Both the position numbers and the translations under genes were made by a program. 64,000 nucleotides of DNA, from NCBI GenBank assembly GCA_000182565.2, contig KQ257468.1, one strand, 5' to 3'. The notes beneath the pieces are model-generated. The model worked only from the letters and a program-made list of their open reading frames with translations, did not search any database and was not told the DNA's origin. This DNA is from Spizellomyces punctatus DAOM BR117 (Eukaryota). This document shows positions 12,001-18,417 of this stretch, in pieces; position 1 is the stretch's first letter, and each line of letters opens with the position of its first letter.

Positions 12001-15000
12001 TTGGTTATATGAGTGGAATCAAACTGATGGAGGAAGCTACCGAAAATCAGTTGGATGCCTTAGCGGGTGGAGAGACGTTGAAGCGGGAGGCTTTCTTCTG
12101 GGAAAACATTCGTACGACTCGGAGATCCGGACTGAGGCTAATGAAAGCGCTGCTGGAAACTGGCTTCGCCCGCCAAATGAGTATATTAATTAGCCAGCGT
12201 AAGCAGGAGATTGTCTATGCTGGCATGGGAACCGAGGATGACAACATGGATCTAAAGATTCTGGCATGGTTAAACGACTATGTGAGTCCCCTCTCCTGTG
12301 ATATATAATGGAAATACGCTTCCAGCTTATCATCTGTTATCTGCACACTACAGTGCCAACGGACACTGCTTCAATACCTTGAATTCTTGTCTGTAACGGC
12401 ACCGCCAGAAATCTTCGCTGATGTTACACCCTCGGTCGAGGATCTCGTGGAGATCTACGGATTAGACCCCGAGCAGGCTTTCTTGATAGCTAGGCCGAAG
12501 TTGGTGAACTCTGTCAAGGTATGTTCTCGCTTTCCCCATCCTACCCAATATCACCCTTGTGTTGCTCGCAGCCCGGGATGTCTTATCAGGACGTATGCTA
12601 ATACTGAAACAGCAGAAACAGCTCACCAATGGTAGTAGCAAAAGCGAGCAAAGTAATATCATGGATATTGATGACAAGGCTAAAGAAAGTATCCCTGACA
12701 CTATGGAGGTTGACGGACCCAACCATGATGCTCCAGCTCATGGTGATGCCGCCAGCGTGGAACATCCTGGCCTCGCCGATCCAGCAACGAATGCAGTATG
12801 GCAACCTGGCCTTTATGAGACCATTCGAGCTTCAGTCAATATCCTTCCACCGCACGCATGGCGTGGGATTAGTCCTGCGTTTTATGCGACTTTCTGGCAG
12901 CTGAGCCTGTACGACATTGTGTTGCCAAAGCAAAGATATCATGGAGAGATTGCGAATCAGAAGAAGAATATCCGACAAATGGAAACAGAAATTGTGCAAC
13001 TCGAGCGAGAACGAGATAACGTTGATGACGGGCTGCGGAAAGCGAACGACGAGATCAGGAAGAAGAGGAAAGAAATAGATAGAGCAAGTCTAGTGATCAA
13101 GGCTCTCGACGGCGAATGGAGGATGCATGAAGAGCATTACAAGCGCATCATGGAAAGAGTCAAAGCGGAGAGTCCATTCTGGTTCCATTCAAGTATGGTA
13201 GCTGTCTGGTTTAGTATGCGGCCTTGAAGGTACTGACAAGATTCGAATGTCTTCAGGCGTAGGTCGTAACGAGATAATCAACACGATGATACAGTACTGC
13301 TTGCAGCCGCGTTGCGTGCAGTCACCAGCAGATGCAATGTATTGCGCAAAGTTTATAATGATGATGCATTTGTTGGGGACACCGAATATTCCAACTGCGT
13401 CGCTTTACGACAGGGTGAGTGTTGAGGAGAAGTCAATCTACAGGAGATCCTTGGCCTAGTGCTAACACTGAGCATGCAGATGTGCAGCAGGGATATCATT
13501 CACGCGTGCATCTTTGCCGGTACTGAGGATGAGGCAAAAAACTACGGACTGTTCTTGGCGGTTATTTTCCGCACACTATCCACCTGGCACAAAAATCCTG
13601 ATCTCTTCAAGAAGGAAGCAATCGGAGAAGGCCTTCCAGGTTTTCTGAAGAAGTGGCCTACTGGGGTGATCACTGGGAATATGGATCTCAGCAATGCAGA
13701 TTTCATCGAGTACGAAGAATTCCGTCAAGCGCTACGAAAATGGCATTTGAAATTATGTAAGGCGATCTTGGCTTGTCTGCAGAGTGGAGAGTATATGCAG
13801 ATTCGAAACGCCATTCTCGTTCTGGATCGCGTCAATGAATATTTTCCAGCGACCAAGCAAATGGGGAACACCATCAAGATCGCTGTACAGGAGCTGGAGA
13901 GAACGGAGCAAAGGGGCGATCTAAAACAGCTTGCCCGCAGTTACGGAACAAAATTGCAGTTGCGAGAGGGACATTGGCTGGACAATCGCGAGTTCTGTCG
14001 AGTCGTTGAACGCAAAGGAAGTGGTATGGTTGACGGTATGGGGACCCCCGGTTCAGAGAGTGTCCCTGCCTCTCGGCGAGAGAGCGAGATTTTGAAACCG
14101 GAAGAAGGACAATTGAAAGAAGAACCCGGTGCAACCGATGGGGAAAGGAACAAAGATGAGGCTAAAAAGCAGATGGATGACCGAAGGCCACGGGAGTCGA
14201 TGAAAGAACCCTCTGGGACTAGCACGTCAGCTCCTCATACCCCGACCCAAAGGAAAGAGGAGAGAGAAGGTGGCGCGAAGGATCGGGATCGAAGAAAGAA
14301 CGATGAAAGCGTATCTGGTACAGTCACCGCCAATTCAGCAGAGAGAGGGGAAAGGGAGCGTGGGGAAATATCGCATAGGGAGCATGGCCAGAGTTACAGC
14401 CATGAAAAGCCTCGATTTAATGAGAGAGATAAAGAGAATCAACGACGAAAGGAAGGAGCCGGGTCGGTTGGCATTAGTGGGACGTCCGCTACCAAGGAAA
14501 AGGAGAAAGATAGAAAACCCGCGCGGGAGCGTGAGAAGGGACAAAAAGATACAGAAAAGGACAAGGAGAAGGAAAAAGAAAAGGACAAAGAGAAACGGGG
14601 GGATAGGGCCAAGGATCGAGACCGAGATAGGAAGAGAAAAGAAAGGGTAGGTCCCGAAAAGCGGCTGTCTTCTCGACTTGAGCGAATCGTCTTTGAAACA
14701 TATTAATCTCGTTTGCCTTTCCTGTAGGAAACGGAAAGCATGACTGAGGATCGAAAGGATCGGAAACGCGATCGTGAAAAGGACGAACGAGAGAGCAAGC
14801 GGAGCAGGAGAGATGATGGTATGGTAGCTGTTGGTTTGCGCTCACTTTCAAGGTATTCCAAGTGGTTCTATTAACACGATGTACGCTTATGAAGTGGGAT
14901 CCTCCGCCGCCTCGGAGAAGCCTGCCAGCGAGAACGGACCTGCGGGAAATGGCGCAGTTGGACGAAAAAGACGTGCTGAAGAGGGTACGTTCGACTTGAT

Positions 15001-15177: not shown

Positions 15178-15349
15178 ATTGGGTTTAATATATTGGCTTT
15201 TTATTGTATTGTATTGTATTTGTAAATTTTGAATTGAACAGCAAAGATGAGCGATACGTCATGTAGTATTGAACAATTGAGCTACGGTTGTCTCCCATAC
15301 CGTACTCCCAATCCTGCTCCAACTCCGGTTAATCCATGCAATTATGACA

Positions 15350-15633
15350 CGATCCGTACATGCTGTTGGGGGTGCAGGTTCAGGATCATTGCATTGGTCC
15401 AAGCTCTGCGAAGCTTACTAATGCAGCCGAAGATTTATACTTCATTGCCCATAATAGTAACAAATATAAACTTGAGACGATTGAAAGTTATCTCCCGATC
15501 CATACATGCTTTTGGGGGTACAGGTTCAGGATCATAGCATTGGTCCAAGCTCTGCGAAGCTTACTATTCAGATTTAAATTTCATTGCCCATAATAGCAAC
15601 AAATATAAACTTTAGACGATTTAAAGTTGTCTC
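15350..15633. repeat. Imperfect tandem duplication, ~146-bp unit x2, immediately upstream of the GPCR gene
   Basis: Copy 1 15350-15495 and copy 2 15496-15633 share cgatccRtacatgct..gggggtRcaggttcaggatcat.gcattggtccaagctctgcgaagcttacta...ttcattgcccataatagYaacaaatataaactt.agacgatt.aaagtt.tctc. Confidence 0.95.
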
Positions 15634-15714
15634 TATTTTCCGCGGCCCCAGTCTTCATATCCACTTAACTACTTGACCGGATCCCCTTCGGCACGGATTT
15701 CTTGAGTGGAGGAA

Positions 15715-17368
15715 ATGTCATATAATGGGGGGTATCTATTCTGGTGGGTCAACTCTTGATTGCTTGGTTCCGCCACTAGACAACTCAACAAGAACCGCAT
15801 ACATTTTAGGGACCAAGTGCCAAATGCCAAAGTCCAAGAGTGGACAGTATGGACAGAACCATATAATACTCTGCAGCACTCCATGTCAGGCTACGTTGCC
15901 CTTGTTCATACCATGGGACTGGTCACGAATGGGTTGATGATACTATGCTTTTGGACGATGGAGAGAGAGATGCGCAGTGCGGCGAACTACCTTGTGTTGA
16001 GTCTGACAACTGCGGATTTGCTCAATAACATGGGAAACGTTGGAACGTTCTGGTATAATACCGTTCGTGGGAGATGGGCTGCAGGAAGAGTTGCATGCCA
16101 GGTGAGAACCGGAATCGCAATCGAATTTTAAAATTGTGAGCTTTCCGGTTGATATGTCAACAATCAAAAGATTGTGGGCTTTTCTGATTTGTACTTTGGA
16201 GGCTTATCCATAACAATGCTGGCGGCAATTGCCTACGAGGTGAGTCAGTCGAATGTGACGACAACGAAGATGAGCAATTGCTATGCTAAAAGTTCTTATC
16301 CGTTCGGACCCCAGCGGTATACCACCATTGTCCAGATACGGCCACTTTCAGGAAAGCACTTGACATATATTATCGGCGGAGCGTGGTTCAGCTTATTAGT
16401 ATTAGGGGTTTCGCCGTGGTGGTTTCACCCTGAGTACGGCTTTCCAATGAGAAGTTCTGGGTGAGTTGAGCAAATGCGCGCATGTATGAAGCAGTCGATA
16501 GCTGATTCAGGGCTAGATTCATGTGTCTAGTCCATTGGGCAGATCCGTCGCCCGCAGGGAGGGCTCTCACTGGAGCGTAAGTACATGCTATAACGGACTC
16601 TTGATCGTGTTGCATTTAACAGTCCAAATTAGTTGTTGCCTTCTCATCGCAGCGTGTATCGCTGTCATCTTCATTTCGTATTATAAGATATTCGGCGAAT
16701 TACGCAGCGCCAACGAAGCGTTGCCAACCCTGCGGACCCGCATTCCGACAGAGTTGGGCGGAGATGGTGGGGGGAGTTATAGATCCAAGTCTTCTAGTAA
16801 TAGCCATGCTGCCTCTGCTAGTACGGGAGTCTCGCAGAAGTCTAGGAAGGGGAGTACCTCAACGAAGATCAAGAACCAACAAAGGCAATTAGAGCGGGCG
16901 GTTTTGACGCGATCTATAATCATGGTGTCAGGTGCGAGAAAATTTAAGAGAGCTTCCGTCTTTCAAAACATTTAGTAAACGGACATCTTCAGTCTTCCTT
17001 GCAGAATGGTTTCCTTACTGCCTTATGATGGTGATCGAGTTATTTACAAGCCGACAAGTGTAGGCCATATATCATTATTGGGTTGTAGTTCGGATATACT
17101 AACAGGATATCTCGTGTATAGGGCACCGCTGTTTGATCTTCTGGCCGCCTGTATGACATACCTCAACTGGCCCTGCAATTCCATTTTGATCATGACGCTC
17201 GATAAGCGATTCAATCGACGAGCACGAGAGATTCTGTGGTTGGATGTCTTGTTTCCGCGCAAAGTAGGAAGTGATGATATTCCGCTAGATGAAGTAGAGC
17301 ATGTAGATAAAAGCATAAGCGACCTAGCCGCATTGCCAGAGATCGAGGAAATCAAGGAATCTTATTGA
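15715..17368 (+). CDS. Class A (rhodopsin-like) 7TM GPCR without the retinal-binding lysine
   Basis: Spliced model: TM1 GLVTNG (N1.50), TM2 MRSAANYLVLSLTTADL (D2.50), ECL1 GRWAAGRVAC, TM3 ending AIAYE|RY, W4.50, ECL2 Cys (FMCLVHW), TM5 ISYYKIF, TM6 FLAEWFPY, TM7 MTYLNWPCNSIL, helix 8 DKRFNR. Confidence 0.9.
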
Positions 17369-17601
17369 AATAAAAACTTACTTGTTACTTAGGACTTAAA
17401 ATTCTTGCACTGCCACAGTTGTGATCCAGAGCCACGGTAAGCACCCTTTGGTAAAGCGCAGCCACGTCTCAATGTCGTCACCACTGATGTCACGCGTCTG
17501 AGTCGCTTACGTACCATATGAACGCACAGGGTATAAAAAGCAGCGGCTACTTTCTGCCAACTCTCACATTGGTTCCCCAACAAGCACTATCAAAGAACAA
17601 C

Positions 17602-18417
17602 ATGTTTTCACGAATTGTTCAAGCGGTTGCCCCGAAACCAAGGCTTATGGTTATCGCCGCTGCGAGCCGCTTTCCGGCATTCCCAGCAGCATTATATCAC
17701 CACAGCCGCGAAATCAAGGTGCCAGGATCAGACAAAGACTCACAAACCGCATCTTCAGCATCGGCCAGTGTCCCTCCTCCACCTGGTGACGCTACTGAAA
17801 ATTTCTTTCCACACTTTGAATCCGATGCCTCTGCGCCGCTGACAAGCAAACCTACTCCATCACGAATCACCAAGGTCGCCAACGAGTCGTCGACAACAGT
17901 AGAGGATCTCATTAGTCTGCCCGCTGATAAAATACGCGAAATGGCTGGATGTGATAGCAAATCCACATCTGCGACCCTGTCTTTCGATGATTCCATGCGC
18001 ATTGTGAGTGAGTTTGAGCGTGAGGCATATGCACCAAAGAGCACAAGCGCGCAAGGTCCTGAATTACTTGGCTTGCATGAGAGAGAATTTCAAGAAGGGA
18101 GGGTGGCGGATGTGAGCGATAGCGCTGAAGTGGACCCTAGGACCGTCCTGGTGATGAAGAAGGAGATGGAGGACATGGCTGGTGGTGCAAGGGGGCGAAG
18201 CGACAGCGCTATTCCGGAGGGAGGAGTGCGCCCAGTGCATCCGTTTGTGAGCGCAAACGAAAAGAGAAGTGCAAAGCTGGTCGGTCGACAAGAAGCGGAA
18301 CATGCACAACATGATGACGACTCACCGCGGCATTTTGTAAAAAAGGCACAAAGAGCCAAAACGGTCATGCCTGTAGATCCCTCGACGCAATTTGTGGAGC
18401 TTGGCAAGGGCAATTAA
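17602..18417 (+). CDS. Hypothetical protein, possibly with a mitochondrial presequence
   Basis: Single ORF from MFSRIVQAVAPKPRL; Arg/Ala/Ser-rich N-terminus without acidic residues. Confidence 0.65.
   Translation: MFSRIVQAVAPKPRLMVIAAASRFPAFPAALYHHSREIKVPGSDKDSQTASSASASVPPPPGDATENFFPHFESDASAPLTSKPTPSRITKVANESSTTVEDLISLPADKIREMAGCDSKSTSATLSFDDSMRIVSEFEREAYAPKSTSAQGPELLGLHEREFQEGRVADVSDSAEVDPRTVLVMKKEMEDMAGGARGRSDSAIPEGGVRPVHPFVSANEKRSAKLVGRQEAEHAQHDDDSPRHFVKKAQRAKTVMPVDPSTQFVELGKGN

What the first reader, a model, noticed from the sequence alone, without database searches (positions are those of the whole stretch)
15715..17368. Fungal class A GPCR: opsin-like scaffold with an amine-type D3.32/Y7.43 pocket
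Seen after splicing: CQIVGFSDLYFGGLSITMLAAIAYERY has the bovine rhodopsin Cys110-to-ERY spacing, giving Val at 3.28 (no Glu113 counterion) and Asp at 3.32 (codon 16186-16188). In TM7 the residue six before the NPxxY-equivalent Asn, i.e. the Lys296/7.43 position, is Tyr (17159-17161), and NPxxY has decayed to NSILI. Established: D3.32 bonded to Y7.43 is the amine-binding feature of aminergic and opioid receptors, and opsin-like class A GPCRs occur in chytrids but are not typical of Dikarya. Inference: probably not a photoreceptor, and possibly a chemoreceptor for a cationic amine, for example in zoospore chemotaxis. The aminergic W7.40 is absent.
Basis: partly seen in the sequence, partly recalled or inferred. 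Interest (0 to 1): 0.78.

Follow-up and report, generated by a model that had tools for sequence, protein, structure and literature searches.

The report
Known chytrid class A GPCR gene
This is an expressed gene for a rhodopsin-family (class A) G-protein-coupled receptor of the chytrid fungus Spizellomyces punctatus that was already catalogued in 2012; it lacks the retinal-binding lysine, and its Asp/Tyr pocket pair is real but does not show that it binds amines.

Summary
An eight-exon gene at 15715-17368 (+) splices into a 402-aa seven-helix protein with Cys3.25, Val3.28, Asp3.32 (codon 16186-16188), ERY, Tyr7.43 (17159-17161) and NSILI in place of NPxxY.

RNA reads confirm the strand, the last intron and a poly(A) site near 17394.

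The gene is not new. From Met35 on, the protein is letter for letter SPPG_08085 of Spizellomyces punctatus DAOM BR117. Krishnan et al. 2012 list it under "Rhodopsin (7tm_1)" in Dataset S1.

- **"Opsin-like" is not specific.** The Cys-to-ERY spacing is shared with GRPR and muscarinic M5. The best solved matches are muscarinic, galanin, rhodopsin and adenosine receptors.
- **A photoreceptor role is unlikely.** No Lys lies in the outer half of any helix.
- **The amine reading stays a hypothesis.** Asp3.32 is unique among the 12 catalogued fungal sequences. Tyr7.43 occurs in 4 of 12 without it, and the three Rhizophlyctis relatives carry Asn7.43. W7.40, aromatic 6.52 and the polar TM5 residues are absent.

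Verdict: an already known gene, a useful target for ligand identification, of low to moderate interest.

The parts
15715..15743 (+). Proposed exon 1 (ATG and 9 2/3 codons, MSYNGGYLFW). It is absent from the published 368-aa model, which starts at Met35 (15883).
   Evidence: GT donor at 15744. The first 10 residues match the N-terminus of Rhizophlyctis rosea P0001 at 7 of 10 positions, and the phmmer match to P0001 continues from the first residue after the intron. No RNA support.
15810..16101 (+). Exon 2: extracellular N-terminus, TM1 (Asn1.50), TM2 (Asp2.50), ECL1 Trp, Cys3.25.
   Evidence: Pfam 7tm_1 E 1.3e-6, 28.5 bits, profile positions 2-59. PDB phmmer top match muscarinic M3, E 1.1e-5.
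16171..16239 (+). Exon 3: TM3 from 3.27 to Glu3.49, including Val3.28 and Asp3.32 (16186-16188).
   Evidence: P0004 reads across both junctions and keeps the Asp.
16315..16460 (+). Exon 4: Arg3.50-Tyr3.51, ICL2, TM4 (Trp4.50), start of ECL2.
   Evidence: Collinear with R. rosea P0001 and P0009.
16517..16576 (+). Exon 5: ECL2 with the conserved Cys (the expected disulfide partner of Cys3.25).
   Evidence: Aligns to the R. rosea stretch GVLCLA(D/N)W.
16633..16931 (+). Exon 6: TM5 (Cys5.50, Tyr5.58), Ser/Lys-rich ICL3, Glu6.30, start of TM6.
   Evidence: RNA depth about 7-8 in bins 16768-16919.
16993..17059 (+). Exon 7: TM6 with Phe6.44, Glu6.47, Trp6.48, Pro6.50, Tyr6.51, Glu6.58.
17060..17121 (+). 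Last intron (62 nt, GT..AG).
   Evidence: Joint 17059>17122 seen in 3 RNA reads of run X18.
17122..17368 (+). Exon 8: TM7 (Asp7.35, Tyr7.43 at 17159-17161, Asn7.45, Asn7.49 of NSILI), helix 8 (Phe8.50), acidic C-tail, stop TGA at 17366-17368.
   Evidence: RNA depth 40-61.
17369..17394 (+). 3' UTR up to the poly(A) addition site.
   Evidence: 7 reads carry untemplated A runs after 17394.

Best explanation
The locus is SPPG_08085 of Spizellomyces punctatus, one of the small family of rhodopsin-family (class A) GPCRs found in zoosporic fungi. It most likely works as a ligent-independent-of-light, ligand-activated receptor at the cell surface and couples to one of the fungal G-alpha proteins. The evidence for an intact switch is the ERY motif with Glu6.30 as an ionic lock, Tyr5.58, the Phe6.44/Trp6.48/Pro6.50 set, and an intact sodium-site set (Asp2.50, Ser3.39, Asn7.45, Asn7.49). 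It is not a retinal photoreceptor. Its ligand is unknown. A buried Asp3.32 beside Tyr7.43, with Asp7.35 and Glu6.58 at the pocket mouth, gives an acidic pocket that would suit a ligand with a positive charge, but this last step is inference only.

Shown here: gene structure, expression, identity with the published model, class A homology, and the residues at each numbered position. Inferred: G-protein coupling, surface location, and the nature of the ligand.
For: Identity: from Met35 on, the spliced protein equals the SPPG_08085 entry under 'Rhodopsin (7tm_1)' in Dataset S1 of PMC3251606 (compared).

Class A homology: Pfam 7tm_1 on exon 2 alone gives E 1.3e-6. The orthologous fragment P0004 scores 33.7 bits, and the R. 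rosea homologues score 34.8-70.6 bits, all above the 30.5-bit cut-off. In the PDB, 201 distinct sequences match exon 2 at E<=1, and all 60 listed are class A receptors or rhodopsin nascent-chain constructs.

Microswitch residues are tabulated.

Expression: 305 reads were laid, 254 of them at 99% identity or more, on the + strand, with a spliced last intron and a poly(A) site.

No Lys lies in any pocket-facing position. The Lys residues are at 17, 144, 217, 251-279, 349 and in the tail.

Chytrids carry the four fungal G-alpha paralogues (passage of PMC3971589).
Against: Pro7.50 and Tyr7.53 of NPxxY and Pro5.50 are missing, and these normally take part in activation. However, Krishnan et al. report NPXXX for all 12 fungal sequences, and the R. 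rosea relatives also lack Pro7.50.

No ligand, coupling or localisation data exist. Two literature searches for functional work found nothing.

The full-length protein could not be scored against Pfam or folded here, because only unspliced stretches of the window may be handed to those tools.
Confidence: 0.85

Rival explanations
1. One reading: a chemoreceptor for a protonated amine (amine, polyamine or amino acid) bound by Asp3.32 with Tyr7.43, for example in zoospore chemotaxis.
For: Asp3.32 and Tyr7.43 are present. Asp3.32 is unique among the 12 catalogued fungal class A sequences (by eye) and is kept in the related fragment P0004. Tyr6.51, Asp7.35 and Glu6.58 add aromatic and acidic character. 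Exon 2 matches muscarinic and 5-HT1B receptors best, although that part is not the pocket. From established knowledge (recalled): Asp3.32 contacts a cationic group in aminergic, opioid and somatostatin receptors.
Against: W7.40 (here Cys), aromatic 6.52 (Cys) and polar 5.42/5.43/5.46 (Ala, Cys, Leu) are absent. Tyr7.43 also occurs in SPPG_00617, 02244 and 07927, which have Asn or Ala at 3.32. All 3 R. rosea relatives have Asn7.43 and Lys7.39, and 3.32 is not covered in any of them. Asp7.35 is a family-wide feature (9 of 12), not specific to this gene. P0004 is 67% identical, so keeping one residue says little. The fungal sequences cluster apart from the human amine group.
Confidence: 0.25
2. 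A light sensor (type 2 opsin relative) that binds retinal.
For: Rhodopsins are among the solved matches (E 1e-3 for exon 2; squid rhodopsin E 3e-8 for homologue P0009). Another S. punctatus gene, SPPG_00350, has been modelled as an opsin with the conserved Lys (passages of PMC5410147).
Against: Tyr sits at 7.43 and Val at 3.28, and no Lys lies in the outer half of any helix. Arg stands six residues before the ECL2 Cys, where rhodopsin has Glu181 (read; the rhodopsin position is recalled). Ahrendt et al. state that SPPG_00350 was the only fungal type 2 rhodopsin with the Lys and counterion.
Confidence: 0.03
3. A decayed or non-signalling seven-helix protein that has lost the activation switch (no Pro7.50, Tyr7.53 or Pro5.50).
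For: NSILI replaces NPxxY and Cys replaces Pro5.50.
Against: The frame is open over 8 exons. The gene is transcribed, spliced and polyadenylated. ERY, Glu6.30, Tyr5.58, Trp6.48, Pro6.50, Asp2.50 and Asn7.49 are kept, and most are shared with R. rosea relatives at only 33-38% identity, which argues for selection. Loss of Tyr7.53 is common to the whole fungal family.
Confidence: 0.08

Closest known systems
[quoted passage not shown] 2012 (PLoS One 7:e29817, PMC3251606)
   Same: The 368 residues from Met35 to the stop are the same, with the same seven downstream exons.
   Different: The published model starts at the internal Met, which leaves TM1 with almost no extracellular N-terminus. Homology to R. 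rosea P0001 supports 34 further residues, from a 29-nt first exon at 15715 and the 5' part of exon 2. Neither the paper's main text (passages read) nor any paper in the library names the gene or its pocket residues.
Rhizophlyctis rosea hypothetical proteins HK097_004178, HDV00_007328 and HK097_007090 (P0001, P0009, P0010)
   Same: These are the nearest named relatives, at 33-38% identity, collinear over every exon they cover. They share Glu6.30, Glu6.47-Trp-x-Pro, Glu6.58, Pro7.32, Asp7.35, Asn7.45, Asn7.49 without Pro7.50, and Phe8.50.
   Different: Their pocket differs: Trp5.42, Leu6.51, Gly6.52, Phe6.55, Lys7.39, Asn7.43. All three models are incomplete, and position 3.32 is covered in none.
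Animal aminergic receptors (muscarinic M1-M5, 5-HT1B, D2)
   Same: They give the best solved-structure matches to exon 2 (E 1.1e-5 to 1e-2). Shared positions are Asp3.32, Tyr7.43, Tyr6.51 (as in muscarinic receptors, recalled), the ERY-type motif and Glu6.30.
   Different: There is no W7.40, no aromatic or Asn 6.52, no polar TM5 positions, and no NPxxY. Krishnan et al. place the fungal cluster outside all human subgroups.
Type 2 opsins, including the modelled S. punctatus opsin-like SPPG_00350 (Ahrendt et al. 2017, PMC5410147)
   Same: Same class A fold family and same organism. The Cys3.25-to-ERY and Asn7.49-to-Phe8.50 spacings match.
   Different: There is no Lys7.43 and no Glu3.28. This is a different gene.

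Membership tests
Class A / rhodopsin-family GPCR (Pfam PF00001 7tm_1) | Significant match to the 7tm_1 profile | tested here: met
   Exon 2 alone gives E 1.3e-6 and 28.5 bits, just under the 30.5-bit whole-protein cut-off. The related fragment P0004 scores 33.7 bits, and the R. rosea homologues score 62.2, 70.6 and 34.8 bits. The full spliced protein could not be scored here. Krishnan et al. list it as 7tm_1.
Class A / rhodopsin-family GPCR (Pfam PF00001 7tm_1) | Asn1.50, Asp2.50, Cys3.25 with an ECL2 Cys, E/DRY, Trp4.50, Tyr5.58, Trp6.48-x-Pro6.50 | tested here: met
   All are present at the expected spacing.
Class A / rhodopsin-family GPCR (Pfam PF00001 7tm_1) | NPxxY in TM7 and Pro5.50 | tested here: not met
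   TM7 reads NSILI (Ser7.50, Ile7.53) and 5.50 is Cys. The fungal family as a whole is described as NPXXX.
Type 2 (animal-type) opsin | Schiff-base Lys at 7.43 | tested here: not met
   Tyr is at 7.43, and no Lys lies in the outer half of any helix.
Type 2 (animal-type) opsin | Counterion Glu at 3.28 or in ECL2 (position 181 of bovine rhodopsin) | tested here: not met
   Val is at 3.28. Arg stands six residues before the ECL2 Cys. The rhodopsin numbering is recalled.
Aminergic receptors | Asp3.32 and Tyr7.43 | tested here: met
   Asp113 and Tyr334 of the 402-aa model.
Aminergic receptors | Trp7.40, aromatic 6.51 and 6.52, polar 5.42/5.43/5.46 (the feature list is recalled) | tested here: not met
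   Cys7.40; Tyr6.51 but Cys6.52; Ala5.42, Cys5.43, Leu5.46.
Aminergic receptors | Placement inside the amine clade in a phylogeny | not tested
   No tree was built here, because too few sequences could be brought into the tools. Krishnan et al. report that the fungal sequences form a separate cluster with PP>90%.

The most novel reading that the evidence does not exclude
SPPG_08085 is the one fungal class A receptor that uses Asp3.32, held by Tyr7.43, to bind a protonated amine (an amino acid, polyamine or biogenic amine) and steers zoospore behaviour. That would mean the Asp3.32 way of recognising cations exists outside animals, either by ancient inheritance or by convergence.
Probability: 0.2. 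Interest if true: 0.7.

Novelty: already known. Interest (0 to 1): 0.3.

Why it matters
No ligand is known for any class A receptor of zoosporic fungi, and these receptors bear on when the rhodopsin family arose. This gene is the only one of the 12 catalogued fungal members with an acidic residue at 3.32. It lies in a chytrid that, as I recall, can be genetically transformed, so it is a reasonable first target for ligand identification. The gene and its family assignment are already in print, so the gains here are a corrected N-terminus, evidence of expression and a residue-level description, not a discovery.

Tried and rejected
- **Word-indexed protein searches.** Searches with exon 2 ('longer': none of 12 candidates scored) and with a profile of all exons plus R. 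rosea rows (only the 3 R. rosea proteins) did not return the window's own protein. Yet 4 of 9 neighbouring ORFs are in that collection exactly. I first read this as 'unannotated' and dropped that reading when the supplement showed the gene is annotated.
- **Full HMMER search of 1.84 billion representatives with exon 2.** It gave 8 hits at E<=1e-3. Two are relatives (P0001, P0004) and the rest are animal receptors.
- **Metagenome scans.** Two scans had 66 and 192 pattern matches, and none was confirmed. One search failed because the alignment was too gappy.
- **TM7 exon alone against the PDB.** Only two chance ribosomal L4 matches at E 1.5, so the TM7 numbering rests on the R. rosea bridge and on spacing.
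- **ESM Atlas with P0009.** Generic class A clusters (0.91-0.93) with no subfamily signal.
- **Sequencing runs.** No RNA holder was listed. RNA evidence came only from laying run X18. X22 and X24 laid nothing.
- **Whole genome.** None is held for this window, so paralogues could be sought only inside the window, and none was found.
- **Tandem Repeats Finder.** Nothing found. The repeat finder did find the upstream duplication.
- **Earlier-findings look-ups.** All empty.
- **Structure prediction.** Not run. The tools take only unspliced window translations or proteins they returned themselves, and none of the available relatives contains both TM3 and TM7.
- **Literature.** 'SPPG_08085' returned 0 papers. 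'aminergic + Chytridiomycota + GPCR' returned 0. S. punctatus zoospore transcriptome plus G protein-coupled returned 0.
- **Supplements.** Tables S1 and S3 of PMC3251606 are old .xls files and could not be read.

Full report
**What is in the sequence**

The stretch 15715-17368 on the + strand carries eight exons with GT..AG borders. They are 15715-15743, 15810-16101, 16171-16239, 16315-16460, 16517-16576, 16633-16931, 16993-17059 and 17122-17368. Together they form one open frame of 1209 nt, or 402 aa.

Its Asp codon is GAT at 16186-16188, and the TM7 Tyr codon is at 17159-17161, both as stated.

**Support for the gene model**

1. A 72-aa fragment from a related organism (P0004; 76% identity in the phmmer match, 67% over 72 aligned residues) reads straight across both TM3 junctions.
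2. Three Rhizophlyctis rosea proteins (P0001, P0009, P0010; 33-38% identity) are collinear with every other junction.
3. I laid an RNA-seq run carrying the same species label as the best DNA holder. Of its 305 laid reads, 254 were at 99% identity or more, and 299 were first mates, nearly all on the + strand. The coverage is biased to the 3' end. Three reads skip exactly 17060-17121, and 7 reads carry untemplated A runs after 17394. Introns 1 to 6 are not covered by reads.

**Identity of the gene**

Short motifs of the protein hit one entry in Dataset S1 of Krishnan et al. 2012 (PMC3251606). That entry is SPPG_08085 of Spizellomyces punctatus DAOM BR117, listed under 'Rhodopsin (7tm_1)'. Its printed sequence has 368 residues plus the stop sign (the header says 369). 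It equals my spliced protein from Met35 (15883) to the end.

The paper (passages read) reports 12 rhodopsin-family sequences in fungi: 8 in S. punctatus, 3 in Allomyces macrogynus and 1 in Batrachochytrium dendrobatidis. It reports none in Dikarya. It describes the motifs as ERY and NPXXX and places the sequences in their own cluster, apart from the 13 human subgroups. A 2025 survey files such genes as fungal GPCR 'class 15' (passages of PMC12842992). So the gene and its family assignment are already known.

The gene name occurs in no main text of the paper library (0 papers).

**A likely correction to the published model**

In the 368-aa model, Asn1.50 is residue 16 (Asn50 of the 402-aa model), which leaves almost no N-terminus ahead of TM1. 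The frame stays open upstream to 15810. With a 66-nt GT..AG intron, it joins an ATG at 15715.

The resulting first 10 residues match the N-terminus of R. rosea P0001 at 7 of 10 positions. The phmmer match to P0001 starts at the first residue after that intron, with query 1-96 aligned to P0001 11-103. No reads test this.

**Family membership**

- Exon 2 alone matches Pfam 7tm_1 at E 1.3e-6 and 28.5 bits. That is below the 30.5-bit cut-off, but the query is a 79-aa piece.
- P0004 scores 33.7 bits, and the R. rosea proteins score 62.2, 70.6 and 34.8 bits.
- Against solved structures, exon 2 matches muscarinic M3/M1 best (E 1.1e-5), then 5-HT1B (2e-4), rhodopsin (1e-3) and D2.
- P0009 matches galanin receptor 1 (7e-10), squid rhodopsin (3e-8), bovine rhodopsin and adenosine A2A (about 1e-6).
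- The ESM Atlas gives only generic class A clusters.

There is therefore no specific tie to opsins.

**Numbering and residues (anchors chosen from motifs)**

| Group | Residues |
|---|---|
| Present | Asn1.50, Asp2.50, Cys3.25, Ser3.39, Ile3.40, Glu-Arg-Tyr3.49-51, Trp4.50, Tyr5.58, Glu6.30, Phe6.44, Trp6.48, Pro6.50, Asn7.45, Asn7.49, Phe8.50 |
| Missing | Pro5.50 (Cys), Pro7.50 (Ser), Tyr7.53 (Ile) |
| Pocket | Val3.28, Gly3.29, Asp3.32, Leu3.33, Gly3.36, Ala5.42, Cys5.43, Leu5.46, Tyr6.51, Cys6.52, Met6.55, Glu6.58, Asp7.35, Ala7.39, Cys7.40, Tyr7.43 |

The TM7 register rests on two things. One is the 11-residue Asn-to-Phe8.50 spacing. The other is HMMER's alignment of the homologous R. rosea TM7 to the Asn-Pro of galanin receptor 1 and squid rhodopsin. 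The TM7 exon alone finds no receptor in the PDB.

No Lys lies outside the N-terminus, the cytoplasmic loops, helix 8 and the tail, so a retinal Schiff base is very unlikely.

**How telling is the Asp/Tyr pair?**

I read the 12 sequences of Dataset S1 by eye with the same spacings.

- **Position 3.32** is Asn, Asn and Cys in Allomyces. In the S. punctatus genes 00617, 03814, 08085, 07634, 02244, 07927, 01340 and 02538 it is Asn, Ile, Asp, Ala, Ala, Ala, Ser and Ser, and in B. dendrobatidis it is Leu. So Asp occurs in 1 of 12. SPPG_00617 has only 21 residues between the Cys and the Glu, so its value is less sure.
- **Position 7.43** is Tyr in 4 of 12 (00617, 08085, 02244, 07927) and Lys in 0 of 12.
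- **Asp7.35** occurs in 9 of 12, so it is a family trait.
- The three R. rosea relatives carry Asn7.43 and Lys7.39, and none of their models covers 3.32.
- P0004 keeps Asp3.32, but at 67% identity that says little.

The pair is therefore unique to this gene in the known set. One such coincidence among 12 paralogues is not improbable, and Tyr7.43 is clearly not tied to Asp3.32 in this family. The other aminergic features, as I recall them (Trp7.40, aromatic 6.52, polar TM5 positions), are absent.

**Mechanism**

The most likely reading is a surface receptor that is activated by a chemical ligand and signals through fungal G proteins.

- The ionic-lock pair Arg3.50/Glu6.30, Tyr5.58, the Trp6.48 switch and the sodium-site residues are kept, in part over 33-38% identity, which argues for function.
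- Chytrids have the four fungal G-alpha paralogues (passage of PMC3971589).
- A buried Asp3.32, with Asp7.35 and Glu6.58 at the pocket mouth, fits a ligand with a positive charge. I put this at about one in four.
- No functional work was found.

**Surroundings**

Upstream lies a Tho2-type gene (13426-14706). Downstream lies a 299-aa ORF with no Pfam family (17518-18414) that is present exactly in public protein sets. No paralogue lies in the window. A two-copy tandem duplication sits in the promoter region.

**What could not be done**

So no model tests the Asp3.32-Tyr7.43 geometry. No whole genome is held. Two metagenome scans found no relatives. Tables S1 and S3 of PMC3251606 (.xls) could not be read.

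**Verdict**

The gene is already known, so interest is low to moderate.

Noticed in passing
window 15342-15633: A two-copy tandem duplication (units of about 139-146 nt, 91% identical) ends about 80 nt before the proposed start codon, in the likely promoter or 5' UTR. Tandem Repeats Finder did not report it.
   Followed up: partly
window 15715-15882: The published SPPG_08085 model starts at an internal Met (15883). A 29-nt first exon plus a 66-nt intron adds 34 N-terminal residues that resemble the N-terminus of R. rosea P0001.
   Followed up: partly
P0001 (R. rosea HK097_004178): This deposited model jumps from Cys3.25 directly to (M)RY. It seems to have skipped the small TM3 exon, so it lacks TM3.
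   Followed up: no
P0001, P0009, P0010, TM7: All three R. rosea relatives carry Lys at 7.39, one turn above the opsin Lys position, next to Asp7.35. Whether this is a salt bridge or a ligand or chromophore contact is open.
   Followed up: no
window 16993-17059 (TM6): Glu stands at 6.47, directly before Trp6.48 (EWxP where I recall CWxP as usual). It is conserved in this gene and in all three R. rosea relatives.
   Followed up: no
Dataset S1 of PMC3251606: Asp7.35 occurs in 9 of the 12 fungal rhodopsin-family sequences. The three without it are the other three with Tyr7.43, so SPPG_08085 is the only one with both (read by eye).
   Followed up: partly
window 15476-15855: A few RNA reads lie in the opposite orientation (first mate on the minus strand), with depth up to 1.76 at 15628-15703, just upstream of the gene. 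This could be a divergent or antisense transcript, but the read count is too low to judge.
   Followed up: no
window 17518-18414 (+): The downstream single-exon ORF of 299 aa is present exactly in public protein sets but matches no Pfam family.
   Followed up: no
The protein searches did not return the window's own annotated GPCR, although four neighbouring ORFs of the same contig are in the collection. The reason is unknown.
   Followed up: no
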